64,000 nt of DNA from Nitrosopumilaceae archaeon (GTDB lineage Archaea; Thermoproteota; Nitrososphaeria; Nitrososphaerales; Nitrosopumilaceae), in assembly GCA_965208905.1 (NCBI GenBank), contig OZ242365.1, positions 1,440,001 to 1,504,000 of the forward strand, read 5' to 3'. Below, piece after piece: positions 3,484-56,584 of this stretch. Made by a program: the position numbers and the translations under genes. The number at the start of each line of letters is the position of its first letter. Position 1 is the first letter of the stretch. Under the pieces are notes generated by a model that was not told where the DNA came from, did no database searches, and saw only the letters and a list, made by a program, of their open reading frames with translations.

Positions 3484-3485
3484 TG

Positions 3486-3881: not shown

Positions 3882-5434
3882 CAGAACACCTCCTGTGGCC
3901 TATACTCCCCAAAGACCTCCCTAAATGCATTGCTTATCTCACCGGTGGTGGCTCGTGCCCGGGCTGCATCAATTATGAGCGGCATCAGGTTCTCGTCGGT
4001 GTCTGCTGCAGCTACTAACTTTGATAGTACATTCTTTACATGCGTATTATCTCTGGACTGCCGTAGTCTCTTTAGTGCGCTGTTTTGTTGCATCTCAACT
4101 GTATCGTCAATGCGTAGCAGATTTGGCTGCTTTTCGTCTGTGTCGACATACTTGTTTACTCCCACAAGTATACGATCATTTGCATCCGCCTCCTTCTTTA
4201 GTCGATACGCATTCTGACGTATCTCAGACTGGAAGAATCCTCGCTCTATGGCCGCGACAGATCCCCCCATCTTTTCAATACGGCTCAAATAGTCCCAGAC
4301 ACCCTCTTCAATACTTGCGAACAGGTCCTCCATATAGTAGGATCCCGCCAGCGGGTCTACAGTCTTTGTAATTCCGCTCTCGTGCGCCACTATCTGCTGT
4401 GTTCGTAATGCTATTTTTGCCGACTCTTCAGTGGGAAGTGCCAACGCTTCATCTCTGGAGTTTGTGTGTAGGGACTGCGTTCCACCCGCCACAGCTGCCA
4501 TGGTCTGTATGGCTACCCGTACTATGTTGTTGTTCGGTTGTTGCGCCGTCAGTGATTCCCCACTAGTCTGTGTGTGGAACTTTAGCTGCATCGATTTTGG
4601 GTTCTTTGCGCCAAACTGCTCCTTTAGTATTTTAGCGTATATGCTTCGGGCAGCGCGAAACTTGGCCACCTCTTCAAAGAACTCTATTGTACAACAGAAG
4701 AAGAATGATAGACGCGGGGCAAAGTCATCTATGTCCAAACCCCTGTCCAGACACGTCTGTATGTATGCAATGGCATTGGCCAGCGTAAATGCCACCTCTT
4801 GAGTAGCAGTACAGCCAGCCTCCCGCATGTGATATCCGGATATTGAGACCGGATACCATGATGGTACCTTCTTTGCGCAGTACTGTATCATATCTCCAAT
4901 GAGTCTCATGGAGGGCTTGGGCGGATAGATGTACGTATTGCGGGCAATGTACTCTTTTAGTATGTCGTTCTGCGTGGTACCTCTCAATACCTTGCTGTTA
5001 AATCCCTGCGACTCTCCTACCACTATATAGTAAGATAATAGTGTGGAGGCAGTCGAGTTTATCGTCATGGATGTGCTAACCTTACCTAAAGGTATGCCGT
5101 CAAAGGCAGTCACCATATCATCAACGGATGCTATGGATACGCCCACTTTGCCCACCTCGCCCTCGGCAGGACCCGAGTCGGGATCATGACCTATCTGAGT
5201 GGGCAGGTCAAACGCCATCGACAGTCCTGTCTGCCCCTTCTCCAACATGAACTTGAATCGTTCGTTGGTAAGTCTTGCATCGCCAAAGCCAGAGTATTGT
5301 CTCATAGTCCAGAATCTATCCCTATACATGCCAGCATGTATGCCTCGCGTATACGGATATGTGCCAGCATCCTCAGCATTCCCATATATCCGCTTTACCT
5401 CAAAGTTTGAGTCTGTAAATATATCATTGGACAT
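3881..5434 (-). CDS. mcmA1: Methylmalonyl-CoA mutase, large (substrate-binding) subunit
   Basis: YPYTRG...WTMRQYSGF, GLSMAFDLPTQ, GTTQNDILKEY, SISGYHMREAG, GGTQSLHTNS. Confidence 0.96.
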   Translation of the reverse strand: MSNDIFTDSNFEVKRIYGNAEDAGTYPYTRGIHAGMYRDRFWTMRQYSGFGDARLTNERFKFMLEKGQTGLSMAFDLPTQIGHDPDSGPAEGEVGKVGVSIASVDDMVTAFDGIPLGKVSTSMTINSTASTLLSYYIVVGESQGFNSKVLRGTTQNDILKEYIARNTYIYPPKPSMRLIGDMIQYCAKKVPSWYPVSISGYHMREAGCTATQEVAFTLANAIAYIQTCLDRGLDIDDFAPRLSFFFCCTIEFFEEVAKFRAARSIYAKILKEQFGAKNPKSMQLKFHTQTSGESLTAQQPNNNIVRVAIQTMAAVAGGTQSLHTNSRDEALALPTEESAKIALRTQQIVAHESGITKTVDPLAGSYYMEDLFASIEEGVWDYLSRIEKMGGSVAAIERGFFQSEIRQNAYRLKKEADANDRILVGVNKYVDTDEKQPNLLRIDDTVEMQQNSALKRLRQSRDNTHVKNVLSKLVAAADTDENLMPLIIDAARARATTGEISNAFREVFGEYRPQEVF

Positions 5435-5440
5435 TACACA

Positions 5441-6352
5441 TCACCTCAAGAGCAGCCCTGTTATGTATTCGGCTGCCTTGTATGGATTTGAATCTCCTGC
5501 TCTGATTAAATCCACCTGCTGCGCAACACGATCGTCTTTTTGAGCCATATGGTTCAGCTTTCCATATAGGTTACTTAAAATTATATCCACAAGTTCGGCC
5601 TTTATTCTGTACTCTTGCCTCTCTTGTGAGTCCATATTGGAGTGTAACGCCTCTTGTATTATACGTGATAGCTCATCTATGCCCTCGTTGTTCTTTACGG
5701 ATGTCAGTAACACATGTGGGTTGCGGTCAGACTCACCTATAAAATCTCGCACAGCATCAAAGAGTGCAGCACTTCCAGGCAGATCAGACTTGTTCACTAC
5801 GCAGATATCGCCTATCTCAGTAATTCCCGCCTTTATCGTCTGTATGCTATCGCCGGTATGTGGATTAAACACCACTACAGTTACGTCGGCCAAATCTGAA
5901 ATGTCCACCTCTGTCTGGCCAGCACCCACACTCTCTACTATTATAGGATCAAAACGAGCATACTCTAATACGCGTATGCTGTTTCTCAGAGACCCAGAGA
6001 CGGCCCCGGTGGCCCCCCGGGATGCCAGACTACGTATATACACACCCGAATCTGTTGATTCGGTCATACGGACACGATCTCCTAGTATGGCGCCACCGGT
6101 TATATGACTTGTTGGGTCGACTGCCAATACGGCAGGCTTGCAGCCTGATTTTGACAGGCGTACAGTCAGCTGGTTTATCAGTGAACTCTTTCCGGCCCCC
6201 GCAGGGCCTGTGATACCCACTATGCCCGCATCTCCTGTATGCGGGAATATCTCTTGAAGGAATTTTTGGGCCTGTACTGGGTCATTCTCGACCAAAGATA
6301 TGGCCCGGGCCACACTTCTACGGTGACCGTTGCGCAACCTCTCTAAATCCAT
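5441..6352 (-). CDS. meaB: Methylmalonyl-CoA mutase-associated GTPase
   Basis: GITGPAGAGKSS, AVDPTS...GGAILGDRVRM, ESVGAGQ, NKSD. Confidence 0.95.
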   Translation of the reverse strand: MDLERLRNGHRRSVARAISLVENDPVQAQKFLQEIFPHTGDAGIVGITGPAGAGKSSLINQLTVRLSKSGCKPAVLAVDPTSHITGGAILGDRVRMTESTDSGVYIRSLASRGATGAVSGSLRNSIRVLEYARFDPIIVESVGAGQTEVDISDLADVTVVVFNPHTGDSIQTIKAGITEIGDICVVNKSDLPGSAALFDAVRDFIGESDRNPHVLLTSVKNNEGIDELSRIIQEALHSNMDSQERQEYRIKAELVDIILSNLYGKLNHMAQKDDRVAQQVDLIRAGDSNPYKAAEYITGLLLR

Positions 6353-29338: not shown

Positions 29339-30776
29339 GGGGCTTATCCCTGTAACTGTAACCTAAAAACAGCCAGACTTGTAAACCCATATCATGAGTT
29401 AGGTTTTTAAAGTACTATAGCGTATAGAACGGCATGTATAGATCACATAGCGTCCGCATAGACCTGACACGCTCTCAGGCGCGTCACATATCCAAAATAC
29501 GGAACTCACAGCGGTTCGTGTATAATTGGGCCGTAGAGAAGCTGCTGGCCGACCCCACACTCACTACATATGATCTCTCCAGGGAGTTTACCAAACTTCG
29601 CAGATGTACACCGCACCTACAGGAAGTAGAGCGCATATACCAAAATACGGCCATCCAGCAGGCCCGCACTGCTGCGGATGTCTCGAACAAATACGGCAAC
29701 GGCAAACTAGGTTTCCGCTCCAAAAAGCTTGACAATACAAAGGCAGTATCATGTGATGTACAGCCTGTATATGTGGACAACAGACACGCGTCATTGCCGG
29801 GCCTTGGTGTTGTTGAGTTGCCTGAGGAGCAGCCATACCAATTTCCACACAACTGGCTGTATGGCTCAAGGTCTTTCCGTTTGGTATGTATAACACCAAA
29901 GTCGTGGGGGCACGTCAAGTCATGTGACCATATCTACCGGTTGCACATAACATATGACGTACCTACACCCGAACGGCGCGCCAAGACCGGTGTTGTTGCC
30001 GGCATAGATAGGGGGATAACAAATCCAACGGTTGTCTGTAAGACAGACCATAACGCCTCAAATATAACATCATACGATACAGCAACCGCATTCCGCACTA
30101 ACCGTACATGGAATGATGATGCGCGTCGTACCATATCACACCGCAACAAGCACTCCCGTACAACATACAAGATGAAACGCAAGCGAGAAAAGTACAATCG
30201 TGGTAATGCGAATGACCGCGAGTATGCAGAATGGTTATTGGCCAAGAAGATATGCGAGGGTGTGGATGTGATATATGTCGAGCAGCTCCACCTTGAGGCC
30301 ATGAGCAGGCGCGGTGGTAGGCACAAAAAGGGCATGAATCGTGGTATGAGGTTCATTCGGCATTATGCAATACTGCGAAAGATACGCATTGTCGCAGAGC
30401 GGTTGGGCATCCGTGTAGTAGAGGTGAATCCAAAACACACGAGTCAGGAGTGCAGTATATGCGGCTACACAAACAAGGAGAATCGAAATGGGGAGACATT
30501 CAAGTGTCTCAAATGTGACCACATGGCAAACGCCGACGGCAATGCGTCGGTGAATATAATTCAACGGGGGACCGGTATGAAGGTTCCCGCGGGGGAAGGA
30601 ATAGCCCTCGAAAGGCGTGAAATGGGCCGGACCCGGAAGCCACCTGTTTGTGCAGTTCCGGACGCCAAGCGGCGGCGTGAGAATCAAGCGTGCAATCGAC
30701 CCAAAACATCAAGCGTCATGAAGCACCTGGGAATGTACGCGTATGTTACGTATGTTCAGTAAGGTGGATAATTCCC
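29339..30776 (+). mobile_element. tnpB-only element with terminal inverted repeats and 8-bp target duplication
   Basis: agccttgc at 29331-29338 and 30777-30784. Left end ggggcttatcc versus right-end reverse complement gggaattatcc (9/11). Confidence 0.8.
29434..30762 (+). CDS. tnpB: TnpB-family RNA-guided endonuclease (copy 2)
   Basis: RFVYNWA, RuvC-I GIDRG, RuvC-II VEQL, HTSQECSICG...FKCLKC, RuvC-III NADGNASVNI. Confidence 0.93.
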   Translation: MYRSHSVRIDLTRSQARHISKIRNSQRFVYNWAVEKLLADPTLTTYDLSREFTKLRRCTPHLQEVERIYQNTAIQQARTAADVSNKYGNGKLGFRSKKLDNTKAVSCDVQPVYVDNRHASLPGLGVVELPEEQPYQFPHNWLYGSRSFRLVCITPKSWGHVKSCDHIYRLHITYDVPTPERRAKTGVVAGIDRGITNPTVVCKTDHNASNITSYDTATAFRTNRTWNDDARRTISHRNKHSRTTYKMKRKREKYNRGNANDREYAEWLLAKKICEGVDVIYVEQLHLEAMSRRGGRHKKGMNRGMRFIRHYAILRKIRIVAERLGIRVVEVNPKHTSQECSICGYTNKENRNGETFKCLKCDHMANADGNASVNIIQRGTGMKVPAGEGIALERREMGRTRKPPVCAVPDAKRRRENQACNRPKTSSVMKHLGMYAYVTYVQ

Positions 30777-31250
30777 AGCCTTGCCATGAAAGTATTGTGG
30801 GTTTTGCAGAATGGTATCGTGTGGAGTATAGTGTTTTTTTATCTCTTGGTGCGTACACAATATTATATGTTGTAAGGTGCCAGAAGGTCCAACTTCAGAT
30901 GTGTTATACGGTTGGCGTTACAGACACAAAATAGATGACATATACAATATATTGTCAAAAATTATCTGTGAATAGCATCTTTTATTCCACACCAAATAGT
31001 GTCCAAAAACATGAAAGTTAATTTTTGGGGCTGGGAAGATACGGTGACCTGGTGTATACTGGAAAGTTTGTGACTCGGAGTGGAAGGGAGGTCGTTATAC
31101 ATTAGGAGTGTGGAGTCATATATGAGGTCGCATACTTACATTTCCAGCCTAGGTGTTTTAACTGAATGGGAGCCATACACTGAACAGTTCAGCCTTGACA
31201 GAACCATTCAATCAAATAAAATTTTTAAAAAAGCGCATCATAATATAACT

Positions 31251-31430
31251 ATGGGCATGGATTTAGATGAGTTGGAACGCAAGTGCCGAGAATACGAAGC
31301 CGGCTCCAAGGAACTACACGAATGGGCGGTACAACACGGCGCGACGGAACTTGCGGAATCGACCAAGCGTAGTGGATCTGGATGGGATGAAGTCTACAAG
31401 AAGATTGAAGAGTATAGGAACTCAACGTAA
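31251..31430 (+). CDS. 59-aa helical hypothetical passenger protein
   Basis: MGMDLDELERKCREYE...KKIEEYRNST; tttttaaa TATA-like box ~25 bp upstream. Confidence 0.6.
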   Translation: MGMDLDELERKCREYEAGSKELHEWAVQHGATELAESTKRSGSGWDEVYKKIEEYRNST

Positions 31431-31525
31431 CTTCTCAAGATCATCCAAATCCTTCTCCAACTCCACTTTTTTATCTCTCAAGATGGTTCCCATATCATAC
31501 ATTTCATGGGTTTCACAATCAACTA

Positions 31526-32635
31526 TAGTTGGGAGCATAAATAATCCTACATTCTGTTAGAAAGGCATAAATGATCAAAATTATTACCTAATTATATGAA
31601 TAACCAAACTAATGCCCAAAAAATAAAGGCTGCCCTAAAACAGACTAAGAGTACAACGCAATACGCCCGTATCGTAGCCGTAAATATGGTGCGCGTTAAA
31701 GGATATACCGTCTCTGCGGCAGCGGATGTGCTTGGTGTAGATCGTAGCACCATATATGATTGGCTTAATGTCTACGACCATAAAGGCCTGGATGGCCTCG
31801 CCGATGGTGCGAGGCCTGGCCGTCCATCTTTCGTACCGCGCCACACATTAGAGAATATAATTAACAATACCAAACAATTCACCGCCTACGGATTTGTTAA
31901 ACTGGCTGAGAAAAAGACCGGCATAAAATACAGCGAATCGCAAGCGCGCCGTATCCTTAGGTCTCTTGGGTTTACCATACGGAAGACTCCCCGGATATCC
32001 GACCGAATTCCACCAAGGAAAGATCTCGAAATCTGGCAGAAAGATGCCAAAAATGAGATAGAAACATTGGAAAAAGACGGATTCACGCCTATAATGTCGG
32101 ATGAAAGCCACCAAAATTTGAGCATGTTTGGCAGCGGCGCAGTCTATACACGCGGTGATGCCATACCGGTACAAACACCACTCGGCAACCAGCGCCAGAC
32201 CATATACGGCGGCATCACGCTGGACGGGCAGACATGCTATATGGCCGCTAGCAAGGCCAACGACAGGTCCTTTATCCGGTATTTGAACAAGACGAAAAAA
32301 CGGTTCGGCAAGGTTGCCGTAATACTGGACAATGCCGCATATCACAACTCTAGTCGTGTAAAGCGATACTTGAAAAAGAATAATAATTTCGTCAAACTGA
32401 TATTCTTGCCTCCATACTCGCCGTTTTTAAATCCGGCCGAATGGTTATGGCTCAACGGCAAGGCAAGGATACGGCGAACTTTCAGGCGGCCGGCCAAAAG
32501 ATATTTCCGAAGAAAAATCATGCTGATATACGAGTCACTGGAAATAAAGTTTGATCCGCGCAATATTCTGTTCAGAAATTTGGACAGAATCCTGCCGGTG
32601 TAAAACTGGTGTCGGGTTATTTATGCACCTAACTA
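31526..32635 (+). mobile_element. IS630-family insertion sequence
   Basis: Inverted ends tagttgggagcataaataatcctaca / tagttaggtgcataaataacccgaca; TA duplicated at 31524-25 and 32636-37. Confidence 0.93.
31596..32603 (+). CDS. IS630-family DDE transposase
   Basis: HTH, RPGRP, DES, ILDNAAYH, FLPPYSP.LNP.E.LW. Confidence 0.95.
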   Translation: MNNQTNAQKIKAALKQTKSTTQYARIVAVNMVRVKGYTVSAAADVLGVDRSTIYDWLNVYDHKGLDGLADGARPGRPSFVPRHTLENIINNTKQFTAYGFVKLAEKKTGIKYSESQARRILRSLGFTIRKTPRISDRIPPRKDLEIWQKDAKNEIETLEKDGFTPIMSDESHQNLSMFGSGAVYTRGDAIPVQTPLGNQRQTIYGGITLDGQTCYMAASKANDRSFIRYLNKTKKRFGKVAVILDNAAYHNSSRVKRYLKKNNNFVKLIFLPPYSPFLNPAEWLWLNGKARIRRTFRRPAKRYFRRKIMLIYESLEIKFDPRNILFRNLDRILPV

Positions 32636-41452: not shown

Positions 41453-42496
41453 TGTATTATGTCGAAATTATTTCGCCTAGTCATCGGTGTCCCTCTCCAT
41501 CCATTCTAAGTCACTCTTCCTGACATCATCTGGTACTTTTTTGTTGTGAAATGCCTGTAGCGGGGTCTCGCCATTGTTTATGTCTAAAGACCAGTGCAGT
41601 CGCACCTCGTTGTAGTACGCGACAAACTCCGCTAGGCTGCCAAAATGACATAGTTCTTCTTCCAAGGTGCGGTGGAACCGTTCAAGCTTGCCGTTTGTTT
41701 GTGGGTGGTAGGGGCGGGTGTTGATCAACTCAATACCCCGGTCAAGCAGCTCTGCCTCAAATATAGTGGGGGTCCATGATTTTGCAGGAATCTTTCTTCT
41801 CACACCCACAAAGCACGATCCGTTGTCGGAGAGTATGGTGGCCGGGGTTCCAAACTCAACAATGCTATTTTGCAGGACTGTTACCGCGTTCTCGGATGTG
41901 GCCCCCTTGAATATCATGGCTCCAACCACACATCTTGACGCATCATCAAGATATGTGATTAATTGGTAGCCTTGAAAACGTGGATCTTTCATCGCATGCC
42001 AGTCCGTATGCCACATCGCATTGGAGTATCTGCGCTCATAGCGTATCCATTTACGCCTGCGCGATTTTGCTGCAGATAGAGTGACCATATTGTTTTCTTT
42101 CATGATTGTGTATACCGTTTTTTCACTTATTTGTATGCCCTTGTGATTTAAGTACTTGGTGATCCTTGTGACGCCTGCTGGCATTATACGATGTGCTGCT
42201 AGTACGACGTTGGTTTGCTCCTCGGTGGGAGGAATCTTGGGTCTGCCTGGCATTTGTAGTGTGGGAATCTTGCCCGTTGCACGATACATTGCCCAGAGTT
42301 GTTGTACGCGTCTCTGGCTAATCTTCATCTCTGTAGCAATGTGTGATGTACTACTACCTTTCCTGCATTGTCGAATGATATAATCTATCTGCTTCTGTGT
42401 CAGATTGACTCTCATGGGTTTGCGTGATCTATATAGACTAAAATATTCTTTGGTTGGCAGTCTAAAGTTAGGGCGAACTAATTTCCGCACAATAGA
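41453..42496 (-). mobile_element. IS481-family IS (copy A), 16-bp target duplication
   Basis: cacgtaagatacttgg at 41437-41452 and 42497-42512; imperfect 25-bp ends tgtattatgtcgaaattatttcgcc / tctattgtgcggaaattagttcgcc. Confidence 0.9.
41477..42460 (-). CDS. IS481-family transposase
   Basis: RYER...N.MWHTDW, DDASR, ILSDNG, RPYHPQTNGKLERFH, YNEVRLH.SL. Start uncertain. Confidence 0.93.
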   Translation of the reverse strand: MPTKEYFSLYRSRKPMRVNLTQKQIDYIIRQCRKGSSTSHIATEMKISQRRVQQLWAMYRATGKIPTLQMPGRPKIPPTEEQTNVVLAAHRIMPAGVTRITKYLNHKGIQISEKTVYTIMKENNMVTLSAAKSRRRKWIRYERRYSNAMWHTDWHAMKDPRFQGYQLITYLDDASRCVVGAMIFKGATSENAVTVLQNSIVEFGTPATILSDNGSCFVGVRRKIPAKSWTPTIFEAELLDRGIELINTRPYHPQTNGKLERFHRTLEEELCHFGSLAEFVAYYNEVRLHWSLDINNGETPLQAFHNKKVPDDVRKSDLEWMERDTDD

Positions 42497-42613
42497 CACG
42501 TAAGATACTTGGGCATACGCTCACACCAACTTTATGATATGTAATATATGCAAGTAGAATACCTGCGAATAACCACATAGTTAGTGTTATATGGGATTTA
42601 ATTGCCCGGCAAA

Positions 42614-46888: not shown

Positions 46889-47118
46889 GGCGTAGTGTTA
46901 TTGCCAATGTCGTATCCTTCCTGTTTTAGGTATTTCATGGCTAGTTTGTACACTACAGCATCATGTTCGGATATAGCTAGCGCATCGTTCCATGATATGT
47001 GGCCGTCTTTATCTATCTGTGATTTTATTTTGGGCAGTATGGAGCGGGCAATCTTGCGACAGTCATCAAATGTTCTGCCATCTTTGTAGGCGGTAACTCG
47101 TATATCACATTGCTCCAT
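46864..47118 (-). CDS. Small hypothetical protein
   Basis: ATG start with TATA-like sequence upstream; soluble-protein composition. Confidence 0.65.
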   Translation of the reverse strand: MEQCDIRVTAYKDGRTFDDCRKIARSILPKIKSQIDKDGHISWNDALAISEHDAVVYKLAMKYLKQEGYDIGNNTTPQIRHRLI

Positions 47119-47432
47119 ATGGATAATCTTCTTTTATATCATATATGAAGATTAGTAGTAAGGTTTTGGAAATTATCTCTAGAATGTATACTGCCTGTCA
47201 AAATAAAGTCAATTATGCATGGGAATACTGAACCGACTGTATGTGTGGAAATTTCGTATTTTGTTTGCGTACCAGAATTACCATTGTGTCATATGTCAAT
47301 TGATGAGTGTAGTGCTTTTCACACATTAAATGATCAGTTTAGATAAGTGTATAATATTTCAGTTACATTCAGGCTATAGCTGTTATACATAACGCGCAAC
47401 ATAAATATTAAAAAATTGAAAAAAATGGACTA

Positions 47433-49085
47433 TTATTTAATGTCACAACCCGCGTTGGGTACACTGTTATAGTCAAGCTGAATTATAAGCGAGGTACCAG
47501 GGAATGTTCCGCTAATCTTTACATCATGACCACTGACTGTCAGAGGCAGAGTCTTGGGACTGTTATCATCCTCTGTTAGTTCCCAGTCATCGCCAAACGT
47601 GTACGTCACATCTGCGGTATCATCATTGTTTCCGTCTAGTATGGTCAAACCTAAAGTACCAAAGTTTGCTAGGTTGTCATCATCACCACTTGCTCCGATT
47701 ATATCGGTTATCGTCAATGGGTTTCCACCACAGTCTAGGGTGTCCTCGTACGTCTTTAGTATGCCATCACCAGATATGCTTGCACCAAATGTCCTGCTGT
47801 ATGGTGTGTCTGCACCTACGGCACTTGCTGCACCACCAATACTGATTGAACACGTAGTATCACTATATGCATTCCAGTTTACCATTACTGTGTATAACTC
47901 GATCTCTTCGTTCTCATCAGTCCTTGGGTTGTCCTTTGTAGCATTAAGAATTAAGGCATCTCTAGTAGTAGCGTCAGTAATATCAGTACCGAAGTTAGCA
48001 CCAGCAGGGTTAGTATGAAGCTTACCAAAGGTGGCTCCTGTAGTGTTACCAAACGTACCATCATACAGTCTGGTCTCAAACTGTAGACCCATGCCAGCTG
48101 TAAGTTTTCTATTATCAAATGTCTCAGGTCTGTCATATTCAACATAATTATCAATATCACTGCCGTCACCAATCACAAAGTTGTTGTTGTATAATGTTCT
48201 GCCATCTACAGTTATGTAGTTTATTTGAGAATATCCACGTAGTGTATTGGCACCAGTAGCATCATCAGAAATACTTGCGGAGAACTCTCGAGACAGATAC
48301 TGTACGTTACCAGCAGTACTGGCATCATCAGTAGCAGTTCGGATACTAGGATTGGAATGTATCATATCTGCCGTATCCAAGAATACATCACTACTACATG
48401 TGAATGCCATGTCTAGTTCATAACGATCAAAGCCAGATACGGTAGTCTTCTTGCCGTGTTGCTTGTAATCATAGTTGGTTATAGTTTTGGTTGTCGTGCC
48501 CTCAAAGAATCCAGATATGGTCTGTGTTGTCTGTGAGCTGCTAGTGGTATTTCTGATAACGCCTAACTCTGCACTTATGGCCTCAAGTTGATCATTTATT
48601 GTCGCCATGTTCAGTGCAATGCCAGCCACCCTTTCAGATAGTATCTGCAGGGATGTGCTGTCAACGCTACTACTCTGACCACTCACTATGCTAGTCTCAA
48701 TAGCCATCAGTCTATCCTCTATGCTGGTTATCTTGTTGTTTATCGCACCAATACTTGCTGCAACAGCATCAAATCCAGTTATTGATGATTTGATTTGAGT
48801 TACATCAGTAGAAATGGTAGCAACGCTACTCTTTACTTCATCAACAGAAGAACCCACAGATGTCAGTGTTGACTCAATGCCAGATATACTGGCAGATAGG
48901 GCCTCTACAGCATCAGACAGGCTAGATACCATATCATTTATGGCATCAACTACAGTCATTATAGCAGAAGTATTATCATCTATTTTTTCAATACGTTGTG
49001 TATTTGATTGTGCATATGCGTCTATTGTCATGGCTCCTGTTACCACTAATAGTGACAACAAGAGTGCATGTATTTTTATTTCCAT
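47433..49085 (-). CDS. Secreted/surface protein: signal peptide, coiled-coil stalk, acidic beta-rich C-terminal region (complete copy)
   Basis: MEIKIHALLLSLLVVTGAMTIDAYA signal, S/T/I heptad stalk, D/T/G-rich C-terminal region. Confidence 0.85.
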   Translation of the reverse strand: MEIKIHALLLSLLVVTGAMTIDAYAQSNTQRIEKIDDNTSAIMTVVDAINDMVSSLSDAVEALSASISGIESTLTSVGSSVDEVKSSVATISTDVTQIKSSITGFDAVAASIGAINNKITSIEDRLMAIETSIVSGQSSSVDSTSLQILSERVAGIALNMATINDQLEAISAELGVIRNTTSSSQTTQTISGFFEGTTTKTITNYDYKQHGKKTTVSGFDRYELDMAFTCSSDVFLDTADMIHSNPSIRTATDDASTAGNVQYLSREFSASISDDATGANTLRGYSQINYITVDGRTLYNNNFVIGDGSDIDNYVEYDRPETFDNRKLTAGMGLQFETRLYDGTFGNTTGATFGKLHTNPAGANFGTDITDATTRDALILNATKDNPRTDENEEIELYTVMVNWNAYSDTTCSISIGGAASAVGADTPYSRTFGASISGDGILKTYEDTLDCGGNPLTITDIIGASGDDDNLANFGTLGLTILDGNNDDTADVTYTFGDDWELTEDDNSPKTLPLTVSGHDVKISGTFPGTSLIIQLDYNSVPNAGCDIK

Positions 49086-49131
49086 TACAGTGACTTTGAT
49101 TATTAGTATTTAAGGGCAAAGTACAATTTAT

Positions 49132-49599
49132 TTAACCACAGCTCAATATTTTATTACCATTCTCATCCATTATACCATCCCGTATTTTAGTAGTAGATAT
49201 GCGAGTGCCGTCTGAACCAGATACCATGGGCACTATTACAACATCCACGGCAGCTAATCCGCGCCTAGTACGCATATCATTTAATACATCACCCATGTGG
49301 GCGGTCTCCTCACTACACACCAAGACATGCACAGATGGTTCCAGTACGGAAGGGCCAAAATCATCATCCAGACGTGATATAACATATGTAGCAGTGGGGA
49401 ACTTGTCCCGTATAAAGCAGGTCAAATTATGTAGCCGTGTGTCATAGTTATTTACAACATGCTTGTCTCGCCGTATAACAAACTCATCACTACACAGGCC
49501 GATTATGGTACTATCATACTGTAACGCCACCGAAAGTAATGCCTCGTGGCCTTTGTGTATAATATCAAATGTACCACCAGTAGCAGCTATAAAAGACAT
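49132..49599 (-). CDS. coaD: Phosphopantetheine adenylyltransferase, archaeal type
   Basis: GGTFDIIHKGH..LL, D.FGP, SEET, N..R..RGL, RISTT.IR.G. Confidence 0.92.
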   Translation of the reverse strand: MSFIAATGGTFDIIHKGHEALLSVALQYDSTIIGLCSDEFVIRRDKHVVNNYDTRLHNLTCFIRDKFPTATYVISRLDDDFGPSVLEPSVHVLVCSEETAHMGDVLNDMRTRRGLAAVDVVIVPMVSGSDGTRISTTKIRDGIMDENGNKILSCG

Positions 49600-49603
49600 G
49601 TAA

Positions 49604-50626
49604 TCATTCCACAGTAAATAGTACGATAGGGCCGGGTACGGATATGGGCGTATTCAGATTGTTTCGTAGAAACACCTCCATTATATAATCTCCCACATAT
49701 GATGGGCTCCAGGGTACGGATATCTCGGTAATAGGTAATTGTACCTGCGTGCTCTCTGAGAATACAATTGCTGAACCAACCTTTGGTTTTATCTGTAGAT
49801 ATAACCAGTGAGTATTATTAGCATCTAGATGTAGACCGGTGCCCAGAGTTACGTTTTGATATACATCCAACAATACAGTACGCGTATCATTATCGTCTTT
49901 GATCCACACATCTGTAATATAAGATGCCAAATCTGGGGGAGAAGCAACATTAAAGATTCGTTTCTGTACGCTCATAGAACTAAAGACATCTGACTCGGCA
50001 TATATGGCAACACTTCTAGCATTATATGGTATGTTTCCATATACGTTGGTAAATAATGTGCCATCCATTCCCATATCCCCTAAAACATGCGTGTCAGTGC
50101 GCAACACCCGAGGAGGCTCAAAGACATCCCTGTACGTCACATGTATGGTAACGTTGCTGTGGGGGGAGTGGGCCACATCCGATATGGTTACATTTCCAGT
50201 TACAGGGTTCATATCAATATGTATGCCCAATGGCTTTGGGTTCGCCTGCTCAAACATCAATATACTTGGTATGGCATCTGCAATACGAATGCCCGGTTCC
50301 GGCGACTGTACAGAGAATGGGGATGATGATTTTGGAGGTATTACTTGTAGTGATGGTGATGATATTACACGGTATAGTGGCGTGTTACTTGTATCATCAT
50401 AGAACTTTACTAGTAATACTACATTTCCCACGTATGATAACTCAGACTCATTGTATATCATACCGGTTACTATGGTGTAACCATTTACATCCGTATACTG
50501 GTATGTGGGGCTTGCCATCTGAACCACCAATGTACTTGGCGTGTCATATGTCTGCGCATGTATCGATACAGGCACCAACAATATCATGGACAAAAGTACA
50601 CCGCACAAAATACATGACACTCGCAT
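49604..50626 (-). CDS. Secreted Ig-like (FxLYD-like) domain protein
   Basis: Signal peptide, GMIYN...V.L.VKFYD...IPP..SSPF, C-terminal W.P...GDY..EVF. Confidence 0.7.
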   Translation of the reverse strand: MRVSCILCGVLLSMILLVPVSIHAQTYDTPSTLVVQMASPTYQYTDVNGYTIVTGMIYNESELSYVGNVVLLVKFYDDTSNTPLYRVISSPSLQVIPPKSSSPFSVQSPEPGIRIADAIPSILMFEQANPKPLGIHIDMNPVTGNVTISDVAHSPHSNVTIHVTYRDVFEPPRVLRTDTHVLGDMGMDGTLFTNVYGNIPYNARSVAIYAESDVFSSMSVQKRIFNVASPPDLASYITDVWIKDDNDTRTVLLDVYQNVTLGTGLHLDANNTHWLYLQIKPKVGSAIVFSESTQVQLPITEISVPWSPSYVGDYIMEVFLRNNLNTPISVPGPIVLFTVE

Positions 50627-50928
50627 GTCATTATATGTGACGCAATTCAATAATATAGTTATTGGCCAATATGCCTCTTGGGTATCCATGATGACGTAGG
50701 CGGAGATATCATGAAGCCGGAGTTGTTATGGCAATTCTGGGCGCAGTAACAGATCCTCTTGTAGATACGTGGGGAGTCGCTCAGGCGGCGTACCATTCCA
50801 GCGGGAAGCACCCACGCCACCTGGCGTATCCATCTGGTAGAACCAGATCTGATCTCCCTCCGAACTGGCATATATCTGCAGACCCGACCGCTTTGAAACC
50901 TAAAAAGTCCCTAGTTGGGGTCAGAACC

Positions 50929-52152
50929 CTGCAGATACTATCTGAAAGGGTGGCTGGCATTGCACTGAACATGGCGACAATAAATGATCAACTTGAGGCC
51001 ATAAGTGCAGAGTTAGGCGTTATCAGAAATACCACTAGCAGTTCACAGACAACACAGACTGCAACTGGATTCTTTGAGGGCACTACAGAGAAAACTATCA
51101 CCAACTATGATTACAAGCAACACGGCAAGAAGACTTCCGTATCTGGCTTTGATCGTTATGAACTAGACATGACATTCTCATGTAGTAGTGATGTATTCTT
51201 GGATACGGCAGATATGATACATTCCAATCCTAGTATCCGAACTGCTACTGATGATGCCAGTACTGCTGGTAACGTACAGTATCTGTCTCGACAGTTCTCC
51301 GCAAGTATTTCTGATGATGCTACTGGTGCCAATACACTACGTGGATATTCTCAAATAAACTACATAACTGTAGATGGCAGAACATTATACAACAACAACT
51401 TTGTGATTGGTGACGGCAGTGATATTGATAATTATGTTGAATATGACAGACCTGAGACATTTGATAATAGAAAACTTACAGCTGGTGCTGGACTAAAGTT
51501 TGAAACTAGACTATATGATGGTGAGTTTGGCAACACTACAGGAGCCACCTTTGGTAAGCTTCATACTAACCCTGCTGGTGCTATTTTCGGTACTGCGATT
51601 CCGAGTGCAGATCCTAGTGAATATGAGTACTTAATTAAAAATGCTACAAAGGACAACCCAAAGACTCCTACGAACGAAGAGATTGAACTATACACAGTAA
51701 CGGTAAACTGGAGTTCATTTAATGCTGCTACATGTTCAATCAGTATTGGCGGTGCAGCAAGTGCCGTAGGTGCAGACACACCATACAGCAGGACATTTGG
51801 CGCAAGCATATCTGGTGATGGCATACTAAAGACGTACGAGGACACCCTAGACTGTGGCGGAAATCCATTTACGATAACCGATATAATCGGTGCAAGTGGT
51901 GATGATGACAACCTAGCAAACTTTGGTACTTTAGGTTTGACCATACTAGACGGAAACAATGATGATACCGCAGATGTTGCGTACACGTTTGGCGATGACT
52001 GGGAACTAACAGAGGATGATAACAGTCCCAAGACTCTGCCTCTGACAGTCAGTGGTCATGATGTAAAGATTAGCGGAACATTCCCAGGAAGCTCGCTTAT
52101 AATTCAGCTTGATTATAACAGCGTACCCAACGCGGGTTGTACGATTAAATAA
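50929..52152 (+). pseudogene. 5'-truncated (possibly silent) variant of the 47433-49085 surface-protein gene
   Basis: Frame intact from LQILSERVAG to stop, but signal peptide and most of the stalk are missing; upstream 50728-50926 is unrelated sequence. Confidence 0.75.
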
Positions 52153-52159
52153 TAGTCCA

Positions 52160-52175
52160 TTTTTTTCAATTTTTT
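52160..52175 (+). terminator. T-tract terminator
   Basis: tttttttcaatttttt just after the stop; mirrored at ~47410-47426 for the other copy. Confidence 0.6.
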
Positions 52176-52635
52176 AATATTTATGCTGCGCATTATAACA
52201 GCGTGTATAAGCTTCTGTACAGGTTATAGAAATAGTTCATCCCCCAACATCATGAGAGTTATCGATATGAAAACCATGTTAGGTTGTTACACTGTATTAC
52301 GTTGATGGTATTTCTTTCTAAGATATGTGATAAAACATATTGTATAATATTACACGATCTTTATAGCACGCCGATTGGAAAAGTCAAAAATTTGTTTCCT
52401 GTACTATATAATATGGCATATGCCAAATTGTTACAACAGGTCCGTAGTTCCGAAAAGTCAGGACGCGTTGCATGCAGATTAGGCATGTTGCTAGTGTTAC
52501 TCAATATGAAGAGTGTCTTTACAACAACGGTCATCACGCCTAGGCGATTTTCAATTGTGTAGGAACTTTTGCGTGCCGCCATAGAGGCATATCTACTGAA
52601 TTTAATTATATACAATTCACACATAACATATACGA

Positions 52636-53781
52636 ATGTCATATTTTGTTGCGGTAGCCGTCCTGTGTATGGGGTTTGGTGTTTGGAGTGCGTATGGTGA
52701 GTTAAGCCTAGAGCCGGTACTGACTGATCTGGATACTCCCTGGGATGTGGCGTTTGGTGATGAATGGATGTATGTGACCACCCGGCCCGGTATACTGTAT
52801 GGCGTACATGAGGGAGAGGTCACACCACTGTTGCATATGCGTGTGAGTGGTGGTGAGGGAGGAATGCTAGGAGTTGCCACACATGAGGGAATGATATATG
52901 TGTATTATACTGATATAAACAATGGAAATCGTGTGTCTCGATATACGCATACTGAAGATGGTCTCAAGCACGACATAGATATCATACAGGACATACCATC
53001 TGCGGCAATTCACAATGGCGGCCGCATACGGTTTGGCCCAGACGCGATGCTTTATGTGACTACCGGAGATGCTGGGAATCCCAACCACTCACAGGATGTA
53101 AACTCATTGGCTGGCAAGATACTTCGACTCAATCCTGATGGAACCATACCTGCCGACAATCCTGTACCGGGAAGTCCCGTATATGCATATGGTCTGCGCA
53201 ATCCACAGGGAATAACATGGGATGCCAACAACACAATGTATGTTACGGATCATGGTCCTTCGGGACTCTTTGAGAATGCGCATGATGAAATAAACCAAAT
53301 AATACCGTATGGTAACTACGGCTGGCCGGATTCTGTAGGTGACCGCGTTACGTCTGGAACAATAGCCCCTCTGATACACTCAGGTGCGGTAACCTGGGCG
53401 CCGTCTGGCTTGGAGTTTATCAACGGTTCTGGTATATTGGAGTGGGAGGGGATGCTGCTGTATGGTGCCCTGCGCGGAGCGCATTTGGGCACAGTAAATA
53501 TAGATGGTTCTGGCCACGCCACATATCTAGATGGTGAGATTGGTCGGATACGTGCCCCCATACAGCATCCCAACGGAACCGTATACGTGATAACCAGCAA
53601 TACTGATGGGCGCGGGTTGCCTTATGAGGATCACGACATGCTGTTGCGCGTGACCCGTGACATGTCTATACCCGACAAATACGAATACCTAGCCGATATT
53701 CTGTGGAGTATGTACCGTGATGGACACCTGACCGTGCAACAACTGCATGTGGCACTCGGGTATGTATCTTCGCTCAGTTAG
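52636..53781 (+). CDS. PQQ-dependent glucose/sorbosone dehydrogenase-family protein
   Basis: GEGGMLG, HNGGRIRFGPD..LYVTTGD, AGKILR, YGLRNPQG, NYGWP, APSG. Confidence 0.93.
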   Translation: MSYFVAVAVLCMGFGVWSAYGELSLEPVLTDLDTPWDVAFGDEWMYVTTRPGILYGVHEGEVTPLLHMRVSGGEGGMLGVATHEGMIYVYYTDINNGNRVSRYTHTEDGLKHDIDIIQDIPSAAIHNGGRIRFGPDAMLYVTTGDAGNPNHSQDVNSLAGKILRLNPDGTIPADNPVPGSPVYAYGLRNPQGITWDANNTMYVTDHGPSGLFENAHDEINQIIPYGNYGWPDSVGDRVTSGTIAPLIHSGAVTWAPSGLEFINGSGILEWEGMLLYGALRGAHLGTVNIDGSGHATYLDGEIGRIRAPIQHPNGTVYVITSNTDGRGLPYEDHDMLLRVTRDMSIPDKYEYLADILWSMYRDGHLTVQQLHVALGYVSSLS

Positions 53782-55528: not shown

Positions 55529-56584
55529 TGTTTTATATGAAAATTATGTTCGTTAATCATCGGTATCTCTCTCCATCCATTTTGGGTCCTTTTCTCTGAT
55601 CGCTTTTGTGGCCTTTCTGACAGAAAATGCCTGTAGTGGTGTCTCGTAGTTGTCAATATCCAACGAAAAGTGAAGTCTGCGCTCATTATAGTACTCTATA
55701 TAGGAAGATAGACTATCATAATGATGTATCTCTGTCTCTATACTACCGTGAAAGCGTTCCAGTTTGCCGTTTGTCTGCGGATGATACGGTCGTGAGTTTA
55801 TCATCTCGATTCCACGGTCTAACAACTCGGCCTCAAACGCAGTAGGCTTCCATTTGCCCTTAGGTGAATCGTCATGCCTTCTTCCCCCGTTAAAACACCT
55901 ACCATTATCTGAGAGGATAGTGGCCGGTGTACCAAATCTCGCTATTGCTTGTCGCAGCACATCTACTACGTTTTCTGAGGTGGCTTCCTTGAATAGGGCA
56001 GCACCCGTTATACACCTTGATGAATCATCTAGAAATGTGACTAGGTTGAGCCCTGCAAAGCGTTGATCCTTCATTATATGCCAGTCAACATGCCACATGG
56101 CATTGGAATATTTGCGCTCATACCTAACGTATTTTCTTTTTTTGGATTTTGCTACAGATGATGTGACTAGTCCATGTTCTTTCATTATGCGATATATGGT
56201 GGCATAGCTTATATTCGGATTGTCTTTTCTGACCCTCCTTGCTGTTCGTATGATGCCTACATCTTCCTCTGCATGTTTGTTCAACACGGTTCGGACCTCC
56301 TCTGCCGACGGTGGTGGGTGGACTGGCCGGCCTGGCTTTTGTTGCACGTGTATCTGTCCTGTTCTTGTAAACTCTGCACATAGTCGTCCTACATGTTGTG
56401 GTGTTACACCTATATCGTCTGCTATGTCAACAAGCGTCTTACCCTTACCACGTTCCCTTATGGCGTATCGTATCTGTTTATCCGTCAACTTTGTCATTTT
56501 CATCTTTTTTCGTGATCGATAAAGCGTGAAGTATTCCTTTGCTTGCAACCAGAACTTAGTCGAACCTAATTTTTGTACAACAGA
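55529..56584 (-). mobile_element. IS481-family IS (copy B), 15-bp target duplication
   Basis: gtaaacatcattatt at 55514-55528 and 56585-56599; imperfect 24-bp ends. Confidence 0.9.
55553..56548 (-). CDS. IS481-family transposase
   Basis: RYERKYSNAMWHVDW, LDDSSR, ILSDNG, RPYHPQTNGKLERFH; paralogue of 41477-42460. Confidence 0.93.
   Translation of the reverse strand: MQAKEYFTLYRSRKKMKMTKLTDKQIRYAIRERGKGKTLVDIADDIGVTPQHVGRLCAEFTRTGQIHVQQKPGRPVHPPPSAEEVRTVLNKHAEEDVGIIRTARRVRKDNPNISYATIYRIMKEHGLVTSSVAKSKKRKYVRYERKYSNAMWHVDWHIMKDQRFAGLNLVTFLDDSSRCITGAALFKEATSENVVDVLRQAIARFGTPATILSDNGRCFNGGRRHDDSPKGKWKPTAFEAELLDRGIEMINSRPYHPQTNGKLERFHGSIETEIHHYDSLSSYIEYYNERRLHFSLDIDNYETPLQAFSVRKATKAIREKDPKWMERDTDD

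What the first reader, a model, noticed from the sequence alone, without database searches (positions are those of the whole stretch)
47394..52191. Inverted complete/headless surface-protein gene pair: candidate inversion-based antigenic switch
Seen: a complete signal-peptide gene reads left from 49085, and a 5'-less but open copy reads right from ~50929. They share ~1.26 kb, including the terminator. Differences cluster in patches (NFGTDITDATTRDALILN versus IFGTAIPSADPSEYEYLIKN; NAYSDTT versus SSFNAAT) between long identical blocks. Geometry: recombination between the repeats would flip the ~2.3-kb spacer holding the promoter, signal/stalk segment, coaD and a secreted-protein gene, fusing the 5' part to the other variant with no gene loss. 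Known: Campylobacter fetus varies its S-layer by promoter inversion between sap homologues. Inference: an analogous system, which I do not know to be described in thaumarchaea.
Basis: partly seen in the sequence, partly recalled or inferred. Interest (0 to 1): 0.8.

Follow-up and report, generated by a model that had tools for sequence, protein, structure and literature searches.

The report
Archaeal surface gene with silent cassette
A sponge-dwelling ammonia-oxidising archaeon keeps, beside the gene for a secreted stalk-and-head protein, a promoterless upside-down spare copy of the head part, and comparison of strains shows that the two copies trade their most variable loops, much as some bacterial pathogens vary their coats.

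Summary
A complete gene (47433-49085, minus strand) and a 5'-truncated inverted copy (homology from 50922, open to 52152) share 1.27 kb at 93.5% identity. They enclose a 2,264-nt spacer holding the promoter, the signal peptide and stalk part, a coaD-like gene and a secreted-protein gene.

The pair is not a mis-assembly, and the headless copy does not look like an inert pseudogene.
- Both junctions occur in contigs of three read sets.
- The pair is syntenic in a sister species.
- The headless copies stay open, with dN/dS 0.37 against 0.30 for the expressed copies.
- Variation sits in three loop patches, between flanks that are homogenised within each genome.
- One patch set is expressed in this genome but sits in the headless copy of a related strain.
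- A distant paralogue in the same genome has the same design, and its spacer is flipped between two species.

Best reading: an expression site plus one silent cassette that exchange by homologous recombination, through gene conversion and/or inversion. Inversion at this locus, and any within-population switching, could not be tested. My searches found no description of such a system in archaea.

The parts
47433..49085 (-). Expressed gene A (550 aa): signal peptide, ~150-aa helical stalk, two beta-sandwich domains
   Evidence: ORF. Helices 3-182 followed by beta domains. An RNA-library contig of 1,657 nt spans 47448-49077.
48658..49085 (-). Unique 5' 'head' of gene A (signal peptide and most of the stalk, residues 1-143), lying inside the spacer
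   Evidence: Homology to copy B stops at 48657.
49107..49113 (-). TATA-like box (TTAAATA) 22-28 nt upstream of the ATG of gene A
   Evidence: A similar box precedes the paralogue F2. None was found between 50690 and 50926. Promoter function is inferred.
47389..48657 (-). Left arm of the inverted repeat (body of gene A plus terminator)
50922..52196 (+). Right arm: headless silent cassette B (body equivalent to residues ~145-550, stop at 52150-52152, terminator)
   Evidence: The junction with unique upstream DNA is present in contigs of runs X1, X5 and X6.
48228..48365 (-). Hypervariable patch HV1 (residues 241-286), a long loop of the first beta domain
   Evidence: 45/46 residues shared between A and B, but only 20/46 with the orthologue F5. 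An RNA contig of another sample has a replaced segment at 48259-48361. Model residues 55-86 are coil.
47853..48065 (-). Hypervariable patches HV2 and HV3 (residues 341-411) in gene A, alpha type
   Evidence: A versus B: 35/48 and 15/25 identical. dN/dS over all HV codons, A versus B, is 1.02 against 0.25 elsewhere. Segments are replaced in X5, X6 and X19 at 47968-48048.
51514..51732 (+). HV2 and HV3 in cassette B, beta type, orthologous to the headless copy of the sister species
   Evidence: B versus H5 is 82-98% identical in the nt windows 541-760, against 70-92% for A versus B.
49132..49599 (-). Cytidylyltransferase-like (coaD-like) gene inside the spacer
   Evidence: PF01467, E 3.1e-11. The function is not verified.
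49604..50689 (-). Secreted-looking 361-aa protein gene inside the spacer (the likely true start is the internal ATG near 50626)
   Evidence: ORF. No Pfam family above cut-off. No paralogue in the genome.
50690..50921 (.). Non-coding stretch upstream of cassette B, with no conserved start or promoter
   Evidence: Replaced by a ParE-type toxin module in the sister species. Two 1-nt insertions in X5/X6 break the upstream reading frame. No Rfam hit and no unusual fold.
47410..47425 (-). Oligo-T terminator-like runs (T7, T6) after gene A; the same runs follow cassette B at 52160-52175
   Evidence: Terminator function is inferred.

Best explanation
The locus is an expression site plus one silent cassette for a secreted, probably cell-surface, fibre-like protein of a sponge-associated Cenarchaeum.

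Gene A carries the only promoter, signal peptide and coiled-coil stalk. The inverted right arm is a promoterless, start-less copy of the two beta-sandwich head domains.

The two arms share near-identical blocks on either side of three loop-encoding hypervariable patches. Homologous recombination between the arms moves patches between the silent and the expressed copy. It can do so as non-crossover gene conversion, or as a reciprocal crossover that flips the 2.3-kb spacer. The inverted orientation means that a crossover can never delete the intervening coaD-like gene. Two crossovers at different points swap a patch and restore the original orientation.

Shown: the anatomy, conservation of the pair, coding constraint on the silent copy, mosaic exchange between arms, and the same patch set at the expressed site in one strain and the silent site in another. 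An inversion between species is also shown at the sister locus.

Inferred: surface location, which recombinase acts, that exchange is frequent enough to give within-population variation, and that viruses or the sponge host select for it.
For: 1. The repeat is real. Arms of 1,269 and 1,275 nt are 93.5% identical. Contigs from 3 of the 3 DNA-type runs laid (X1, X5, X6; three studies) span 48623-50956, which is the spacer plus both arm junctions.

2. The pair is conserved. Sister species G005 has the same full/headless inverted pair with the same boundary, collinear flanks at 95.7% identity, and arms only 81.7% identical. Two further full/headless pairs each lie on one contig length (P0002/P0007 at 1,779,746 bp; P0004/P0013 at 31,018 bp).

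3. The silent copy is constrained.
- dN/dS between the headless orthologues B and H5 is 0.37, against 0.30 for the bodies of the expressed orthologues.
- Outside the patches, B-H5 gives 0.29.
- The chance of no stop codon arising under neutral change is 0.011 for B-H5 and 0.005 for F5-H5.
- The four B-H5 indels inside the coding part are all multiples of three, as are all eight F5-H5 indels.

4. The headless copy has no conserved start. The DNA upstream of it is unrelated in G005 (a ParE-type module), and the upstream frame is broken by two 1-nt insertions in X5/X6.

5. The arms have exchanged sequence.
- B is 99-100% identical to A over the first ~500 nt, including HV1. The orthologues differ by about 35% at HV1 itself. 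From column 541 to 760, B follows H5 at 82-98%.
- A, expressed here, matches the headless P0007 of another strain at HV1 45/46, HV2 45/46 and HV3 24/25. That strain's expressed P0002 has the same head (142/144) but HV1 20/46 and HV2 26/49.
- On a tree of the HV region (17 of 19 sequences; the two fragments P0016 and P0017 of unknown status were left out), the full/headless label needs 5 changes. Shuffled labels give a mean of 5.9-6.0. Forcing the headless copies into one clade is rejected (AU p 0.0004).

6. The design is replicated. Paralogue F2 (about 23-25% identical to A) has its own headless inverted copy H2, with arms 97% identical over 1,339 nt. This pair is also present in G005.
- The 128-nt unique spacer end maps plus/plus between the species while both flanks map plus/minus.
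- The spacer end that abuts the headless copy here abuts the full copy there, so the spacer has been inverted.
- dN/dS is 0.54 for the headless copies against 0.56 for the full ones.

7. The variable parts are loops. The C-terminal model (pLDDT 86.8) places HV1-HV3 in coil or turn regions of the first beta domain. Four cysteines are invariant.
Against: - No orientation polymorphism or chimeric molecule was observed. The runs were available only as contigs, which cannot show one. The two assemblies of this locus that could be compared are collinear.
- There is only one cassette per locus, so the repertoire is small compared with known antigenic-variation systems.
- In G005 the arms have drifted to 81.7% identity, and to 53-71% in the first ~130 nt. 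That would make recombination upstream of HV1 rare there.
- The syntenic site of the more distant G008 has no headless copy, so the arrangement is young and confined to one clade.
- Constraint on the silent copy could partly reflect repeated overwriting from the expressed gene, or import of alleles from other strains, rather than selection for a reservoir.
- The HV-region tree has no strongly supported branches, and recombination violates tree models. I ran the AU test after I had seen the tree.
- Surface location rests on a signal peptide read by eye, invariant cysteines and the fold. No experiment supports it.
Confidence: 0.6

Rival explanations
1. Evolutionary by-product. A partial inverted duplication arose once in the ancestor of this clade. 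It is kept looking like a gene only because gene conversion from the functional copy, and allele import from other strains, keep refreshing it. It gives the cell no variation benefit and switches at no appreciable rate.
For: - There is one cassette only.
- The headless copy is absent from the syntenic site in G008.
- The G005 arms have decayed to 81.7% identity, with a poorly matching 5' block.
- No orientation variants were seen.
- The first ~500 nt of B are a recent copy of A.
Against: - Conversion from the expressed copy cannot explain why B and H5 keep their own beta-type HV2/HV3 patch across species, with dN/dS 0.57 and in-frame indels.
- It cannot explain why the alpha patch set sits in the silent position of another strain.
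- It cannot explain why a second, about 23-25%-identical paralogue independently shows the same design in two species.
- The chance of no stop codon under neutral change is 0.005-0.011.
Confidence: 0.22
2. Recombinase-driven inversion switch of the shufflon or G-segment type. A dedicated site-specific recombinase, or a low-specificity tyrosine recombinase, flips the spacer at defined sites so that the head is fused alternately to either body.
For: - The geometry allows it.
- At the sister locus the spacer is inverted between species.
- A 349-aa gene (P0001) lies 383 nt from that headless copy. Its nearest ESM Atlas clusters are Phage_integrase families of Nitrososphaerota (score 0.97; 23 of 30 hits).
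- An archaeal integrase, IntpTN3, is reported to invert DNA between identical segments of 104 bp or more (PMC8371274, passages read).
Against: - No recombinase domain was found in 28 of 31 ORFs scanned between 30 and 64 kb of the window. Only DDE, rve and TnpB-type transposase domains turned up.
- The nearest P0001 paralogue lies about 56 kb away.
- P0001 has no Pfam, PHROG or PDB sequence match. It has three paralogues, as integrases of integrated elements do.
- The mosaics show exchange points at several places along the arms rather than at one site.
- No short conserved crossover motif is shared by the two loci.
Confidence: 0.1
3. The headless copy is a separate gene with its own start. It makes a head-domain-only protein.
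For: - The frame is open from an ATG at 50728.
- At the sister locus a TATA-like box lies about 25 nt before the arm.
Against: - The upstream extension has no signal peptide, although four cysteines are invariant in the body.
- The extension is unrelated in G005 and frame-broken in X5/X6.
- No TTAAATA-type box lies between 50690 and 50926.
Confidence: 0.05
4. Assembly artefact: strain variants of one gene wrongly placed as an inverted duplicate.
For: The sample holds more than one strain-like depth class.
Against: - The junction between unique DNA and the right arm is present in contigs of three runs from three studies.
- It is also present in an independent assembly of a sister species.
- The upstream stretch is visible in the translated N-termini of headless database proteins P0007 and P0012.
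Confidence: 0.01

Closest known systems
Neisseria pilE/pilS pilin variation (recalled; classed as recombination-mediated antigenic variation in PMC11868660, passages read)
   Same: There is one expressed gene with promoter and constant 5' part. The silent copies lack the promoter and the 5' coding region. Variable mini-cassettes sit between conserved blocks, and transfer is by homologous recombination.
   Different: Here there is one cassette per locus instead of many. The cassette is inverted and adjacent, so reciprocal crossover (inversion) is also possible. No G-quadruplex motif was found. The organism is an archaeon and the protein family is unrelated. Neither the direction nor the frequency of transfer is known.
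Campylobacter fetus sap S-layer switching by promoter inversion (recalled; my searches gave no text on the mechanism)
   Same: A single promoter lies on an invertible segment between oppositely oriented homologues. Recombination is through long homologous regions, not short sites, and no gene is lost.
   Different: In C. fetus the homologues are complete and share their 5' region. Here the shared region is the 3' body, and the invertible segment carries the promoter plus the 5' coding part. The protein here is not known to be an S-layer protein.
Phage Mu G segment / P1 C segment and the R64 shufflon (recalled; shufflon definition in PMC11868660)
   Same: Alternative C-terminal, receptor-facing parts of a fibre-like protein are joined to one constant N-terminal part by DNA inversion.
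   Different: Those systems use short crossover sites and a dedicated invertase gene next to the segment, and the variable parts lie inside the invertible segment. Here the arms are 1.27 kb, no recombinase gene was found nearby, and the constant part is the one that flips.
Mycoplasma vsa/vpma loci (recalled; Vpma shufflon named in PMC11868660)
   Same: A single expression site holds the promoter and signal-peptide part. The silent genes lack a 5' end and are activated by inversion.
   Different: Those loci use site-specific Xer-type recombination at short sites and hold several silent genes encoding lipoproteins.
Invertons found from long reads, including 12 putative archaeal ones (PMC10028968, passages read)
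   Same: Inverted repeats flank a segment that overlaps a gene ('partial intergenic' class). Archaea are little explored.
   Different: The archaeal data sets in that survey were 36 from Euryarchaeota and 6 from Crenarchaeota, so none came from Thaumarchaeota. I did not open the supplement listing the archaeal cases, and it may bear on this comparison.

Membership tests
Silent-cassette / expression-site variation by homologous recombination (pilE/pilS type) | Expressed copy with promoter and 5' constant region; silent copy lacking both | tested here: met
   The head and TATA-like box lie only upstream of gene A. Cassette B starts at residue ~145 and has no conserved start.
Silent-cassette / expression-site variation by homologous recombination (pilE/pilS type) | Variable segments flanked by conserved blocks shared by expressed and silent copies | tested here: met
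   Within pairs, the 5' block is 89-94/96 and the 3' block 135/139 identical, while HV1-HV3 are as low as 20/46.
Silent-cassette / expression-site variation by homologous recombination (pilE/pilS type) | Sequence moves from the silent to the expressed copy | tested here: inconclusive
   The same patch set is expressed in G000 and silent in another strain, and the arms are mosaic. Direction and rate are unknown.
Silent-cassette / expression-site variation by homologous recombination (pilE/pilS type) | Variants arise at high frequency within a clonal population | not testable with these tools
   Only short-k-mer contigs of the runs were available, and they break inside the arms.
Silent-cassette / expression-site variation by homologous recombination (pilE/pilS type) | Repertoire of several silent copies | tested here: not met
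   There is one headless copy for A and one for F2. None was found for the other paralogues.
Campylobacter fetus sap-type promoter inversion | Unique promoter on an invertible segment between oppositely oriented homologues | tested here: met
   This holds for the geometry only.
Campylobacter fetus sap-type promoter inversion | Homologues are complete genes sharing a conserved 5' region (recalled feature) | tested here: not met
   The shared region is the 3' 1.27 kb, and the second copy lacks 143 N-terminal codons.
Campylobacter fetus sap-type promoter inversion | Both orientations occur in a population | not testable with these tools
   The two assemblies compared are collinear.
Site-specific invertase systems (Gin/Hin, Rci shufflon, Xer-type vsa/vpma) | Dedicated recombinase gene at the locus | tested here: not met
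   No recombinase domain was found in 28 of 31 ORFs scanned at 30-64 kb. The nearest integrase-like paralogue is about 56 kb away. The sister locus does have an integrase-like neighbour.
Site-specific invertase systems (Gin/Hin, Rci shufflon, Xer-type vsa/vpma) | Short defined crossover sites | tested here: inconclusive
   The arms are 1.27 kb, with exchange points at several places. No motif is shared between the two loci's boundaries on inspection. A site hidden inside the arms is not excluded.
Diversity-generating retroelement | Adenine-specific differences between template and variable repeat | tested here: not met
   The 82 A-B mismatches fall evenly on all four bases in either copy (A 23, C 19, G 19, T 21 in copy A). 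No reverse transcriptase was seen among the scanned ORFs.
Double jelly-roll capsid-like proteins | Two jelly rolls packed as in PRD1 P3 or PBCV-1 Vp54 | tested here: inconclusive
   Foldseek lists these at E ~1e-4, but with TM 0.13-0.22 and rmsd ~22 A. VIA-align matches only the last domain to generic jelly rolls (best Z 8.5, 104 aligned, rmsd 3.4).

The most novel reading that the evidence does not exclude
This would be the first recombination-based surface-variation system of the antigenic-variation kind in Archaea. Sponge-symbiotic Cenarchaeum would reversibly re-tip a secreted stalk-and-head fibre, by RadA-dependent or integrase-assisted inversion and gene conversion between an expression site and an inverted silent cassette. 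That would create within-population heterogeneity which lets cells escape archaeal viruses or recognition by the sponge. Two independent loci in the genome are built the same way.
Probability: 0.35. Interest if true: 0.85.

Novelty: new variant of a known kind. Interest (0 to 1): 0.7.

Why it matters
Programmed variation of surface proteins by silent cassettes or DNA inversion is a hallmark of host-associated bacteria and of eukaryotic parasites. For archaea, a survey and a review that I read in passages describe inversion-based switching as barely explored. My five literature searches found no silent-cassette system in an archaeon.

Here the design appears twice in one genome of an obligate animal symbiont, and comparative evidence shows that the cassettes really do exchange. 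If switching occurs within populations, archaea would have reached the same solution to virus or host pressure independently. The protein family, which is found almost only in this genus, would become a candidate virus receptor or host-interaction fibre. The open question of how thaumarchaeal symbionts persist inside a phagocytic host would then have a concrete, testable locus.

Tried and rejected
- tRNA and Rfam scans of the window, and of 50600-50960, found nothing. The 237-nt stretch upstream of the cassette folds no better than shuffles (z -1.2 and -0.2). An RNA gene or integration site at the cassette boundary was therefore dropped.
- A DGR was rejected because the mismatches show no adenine bias.
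- No G-quadruplex motif lies in 47000-52600.
- Read laying gave contigs only. They break about 30 nt inside each arm, so orientation and patch linkage could not be read. The RNA run X19 gave no cover over 50820-52200, and that is not evidence that the cassette is silent. Contig depths were not used to rank expression.
- The JGI metagenome scan with protein A found no relative.
- Earlier notes of this scan hold nothing on this locus.
- P0001 (next to the sister cassette) has no Pfam, PHROG or PDB sequence match. Only the ESM Atlas points to integrases. An apparent shared C-terminal PNAGC motif with protein A has no DNA similarity behind it and was dropped as coincidence.
- The full-length structure model was poor (pLDDT 61), and its fold hits were not trusted.
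- The secreted 361-aa spacer protein has no paralogue, so no 'fibre plus partner' module could be argued.
- DNA downstream of the two arms shares nothing, so the duplication does not extend beyond 47389 and 52196.
- Text on the C. fetus mechanism was not found in the held library, and the review PMC3334452 is not held. Those comparisons are recalled.

Full report
**What is there**

On the minus strand an ORF runs from 49085 to 47433 (550 aa). It starts with a Sec-type signal peptide, read by eye as a hydrophobic core ending AYA|Q. On the plus strand a frame is open from 50728 to 52152. It resembles the first gene only from 50922-50927 onward, which is residue ~145.

The two arms are 47389-48657 and 50922-52196.
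- They are 93.5% identical over 1,270 columns, and the proteins share 373/426 residues.
- Both arms include the stop codon and the T7/T6 runs that follow it.
- The inner ends are 2,264 nt apart.

The spacer holds four things:
- the 5' 428 nt of the gene, encoding the signal peptide and most of a helical stalk;
- a TTAAATA box 22-28 nt before the ATG;
- a cytidylyltransferase-like gene (PF01467);
- a 361-aa secreted-looking gene.

The differences between the arms are concentrated at 48065-47853. They include two in-frame 3-nt indels.

**Organism and protein**

The window lies in a single 2,214,775-bp contig of 45.6% G+C. Named relatives of the protein are Cenarchaeum MAGs, and the runs that hold the locus carry sponge labels.

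The protein family is small.
- It was found in 9 of 9 other genomes of the genus and in 0 of 15 genomes of other genera of the same family. There was one weak hit elsewhere among the 41 genomes searched.
- It forms only 46 clusters at E <= 0.001 among 1.84 billion representatives.
- Pfam sees only coiled-coil noise in the N-terminus.

The structure models give the following.
- The full-length model is poor (pLDDT 61) but shows helices 3-182 followed by beta structure.
- A model of residues 190-550 built on 49 sequences is good (pLDDT 86.8, pTM 0.67). It shows two beta-sandwich domains.
- Foldseek lists double-jelly-roll capsid proteins at E ~1e-4, but with TM of only 0.13-0.22.
- VIA-align matches only the last domain to generic jelly rolls (best Z 8.5, 104 residues, rmsd 3.4).
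- I therefore call it a tandem jelly-roll-like head on a coiled-coil stalk, without assigning a family.

Four cysteines are invariant, which fits an extracellular protein.

An RNA-library contig of 1,657 nt from another sponge sample covers the whole gene from 47448 to 49077. Two of its segments are replaced, at 48259-48361 and 47968-48044. So the head-plus-body form is the one found in RNA contigs, and those two places vary between populations.

**Not an artefact and not a plain pseudogene**

- Contigs of runs X1, X5 and X6 (three studies) each span 48623-50956. That is the spacer plus about 30 nt of both arms, as expected for a true inverted repeat in a k-mer assembly.
- Sister species G005 has the same arrangement, with collinear flanks (95.7%) and arms only 81.7% identical. 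Its truncation point is the same.
- The DNA upstream of the headless copy is unrelated in G005. A ParE-type module and a 318-aa gene lie there instead.
- In X5/X6, two 1-nt insertions break the frame that in G000 runs back to the ATG at 50728. The cassette therefore has no conserved start of its own.

Yet the cassette is kept as coding sequence.
- dN/dS between the headless orthologues is 0.37, against 0.30 for the bodies of the expressed orthologues. Outside the variable patches it is 0.29.
- Simulated neutral change leaves the frame open in only 1.1% of trials (B-H5) and 0.5% of trials (F5-H5).
- The four B-H5 indels inside the coding part are all multiples of three, as are all eight F5-H5 indels.

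**Exchange between the copies**

A sliding comparison of the four arms shows a mosaic.
- The first ~500 nt of B are 99-100% identical to A, with a dip to 89% around columns 91-180. This stretch includes HV1, where the orthologues differ by about 35%.
- Columns 541-760 of B follow the headless copy of G005 (82-98%), not A (70-92%).
- The 3' block is shared by all four arms.

Database proteins extend the picture. P0007 is a headless form. Its translated upstream stretch matches the DNA before cassette B, and it lies on a contig of 1,779,746 bp together with a full-length P0002.
- P0007 carries the patch set that is expressed in G000: HV1 45/46, HV2 45/46, HV3 24/25.
- P0002 has the same head as A (142/144) but different patches: HV1 20/46, HV2 26/49.

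So the alpha patch set is at the expression site in one strain and at the silent site in another.

This cannot be one flip, because the extreme 3' ends stay with their flanks. It needs a gene conversion or two crossovers at different points.

A tree of the HV region gives the same answer.
- I used 17 of 19 sequences. Two fragments of unknown status were left out.
- The full/headless label needs 5 changes. Shuffled labels give a mean of 5.9-6.0, and 155-167 of 500 shuffles are as low.
- Holding the headless copies together is rejected (AU p 0.0004).
- The caveats are that no branch is strongly supported, that recombination violates tree models, and that I ran the test after seeing the tree.

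dN/dS within the patches between A and B is 1.02, against 0.25 elsewhere. In the model the patches fall in coil and turn regions of the first beta domain.

**A second locus of the same design, with an inversion**

Among the close inverted repeats of 300 nt or more in the genome, 8 of the 9 others examined were transposase-like and one more encoded a helix-turn-helix fragment like that of a transposase. Eight of the nine had 4-15 copies and one had two copies at 99.9% identity. A region of repetitive giant genes was not examined. This locus and one more remained.

That other locus involves paralogue F2 (genome 2177524-2179302, about 23-25% identical to A). F2 has a headless inverted copy H2 (arm 2175402-2176734).
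- The arms are 97% identical over 1,339 nt.
- The copies are convergent rather than divergent, and a variable patch lies near the C-terminus.
- Of the five to six paralogues in the genome, only A and F2 have such partners.

The F2/H2 pair also exists in G005, so it was found in 2 of the 10 genus genomes searched.
- Both flanks map plus/minus between the species. The unique 128-nt end of the spacer maps plus/plus (82%, E 9e-29), and so do about 45 nt at its other end.
- The spacer end that abuts the headless copy in G000 abuts the full copy in G005.
- One inversion through the arms explains this. Differential loss from a once-longer repeat is possible but needs two events.
- dN/dS of the headless pair (0.54) equals that of the full pair (0.56).

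**Mechanism**

The most likely mechanism is general homologous recombination between the arms. It would give both conversion tracts and occasional crossovers that flip the spacer.

No recombinase domain was found in 28 of the 31 ORFs scanned between 30 and 64 kb. Only DDE, rve and TnpB-type transposase domains turned up.

At the sister locus a 349-aa gene (P0001) lies 383 nt from the cassette.
- Its nearest ESM Atlas clusters are thaumarchaeal Phage_integrase families (score 0.97).
- It has no Pfam, PHROG or PDB sequence match.
- It has three paralogues elsewhere in the genome, which suggests an integrase of an integrated element.
- An archaeal integrase that inverts DNA between identical segments of 104 bp or more is on record (PMC8371274, passages). 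A role for such an enzyme therefore cannot be excluded.

The arrangement is young. The syntenic site of the more distant G008 goes straight from the secreted-protein gene to the next conserved gene, with no cassette.

**What is not shown**

- Inversion at this locus was not shown.
- Heterogeneity within a population was not shown.
- Which way sequence flows between the copies is unknown.
- Surface location was not shown.
- The selecting agent is unknown.

The runs could be read only as contigs, which cannot link sequence across identical blocks longer than the k-mer.

**Comparison with known systems and novelty**

In working principle the locus is closest to silent-cassette systems such as pilE/pilS. 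It has the added option of a sap-like or G-segment-like flip, because the single cassette is inverted and adjacent. These comparisons are recalled, and definitions come from PMC11868660. It fails defining features of each: there is one cassette only, the 3' rather than the 5' region is shared, and there are no short sites and no local invertase.

A long-read survey found 12 putative archaeal invertons in 42 data sets, none of which came from Thaumarchaeota (PMC10028968, passages; its supplement was not opened). My five searches found no description of an expression-site/silent-cassette arrangement in an archaeon.

I rate it a new variant of a known kind, with interest 0.7.

Noticed in passing
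window 52194-52588: A ~345-nt element starts exactly where the right arm ends. It recurs at genome 1512564-1512905 (85.5%) and 1884207-1884073. A ~45-nt motif follows it at 52538-52588 and occurs at five or more other sites. Read contigs have many loose ends here. It is probably a MITE or an IS remnant.
   Followed up: partly
genome C1:2173970-2175019 (L014:10971-12020, minus strand): A 349-aa gene lies next to the second headless cassette. It has no Pfam, PHROG or PDB sequence hit, but its nearest ESM Atlas clusters are thaumarchaeal Phage_integrase families. It has three paralogues (genome 558107, 1721722, 1431013). It sits beside a DUF4411/IrrE-peptidase pair and IS fragments, which suggests an integrated element or defence islet.
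   Followed up: partly
L013:3615-6148 and L013:9593-11265 (G005): The sister species carries two insertions that are absent here. One is a SIR2_2-domain gene left of the full gene. The other is a ParE-type toxin gene plus a 318-aa gene, placed between the secreted-protein gene and the headless cassette.
   Followed up: partly
genome C1:1863900-1871150 and 1884300-1888850: Two long, internally repetitive regions lie in inverted orientation 13-19 kb apart (76-88% identity). Nearby sequences resemble the C-terminal domain of the paralogue at 905080. They may be giant surface-protein genes with the same end domain.
   Followed up: no
window 50868-50935: A 9-nt inverted match (TATCTGCAG / CTGCAGATA, around a PstI-like palindrome) lies about 55 nt upstream of the cassette boundary and again at the boundary itself. 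It may be a footprint of the template switch that made the inverted duplication, or it may be chance.
   Followed up: no
window 30172-32603, 41477-42499, 55553-56548: The neighbourhood is rich in insertion sequences: a TnpB-like fragment, a DDE_3/IS630-type transposase and two rve-type transposases. Many of these IS copies form close inverted pairs elsewhere in the genome.
   Followed up: partly
L016 (G008:C118) 3170-5820: In the more distant species the TrkH and 262-aa membrane-protein genes left of the surface gene lie in the opposite orientation to this window. The GSDH gene found here at 52636-53781 is absent from that site.
   Followed up: no
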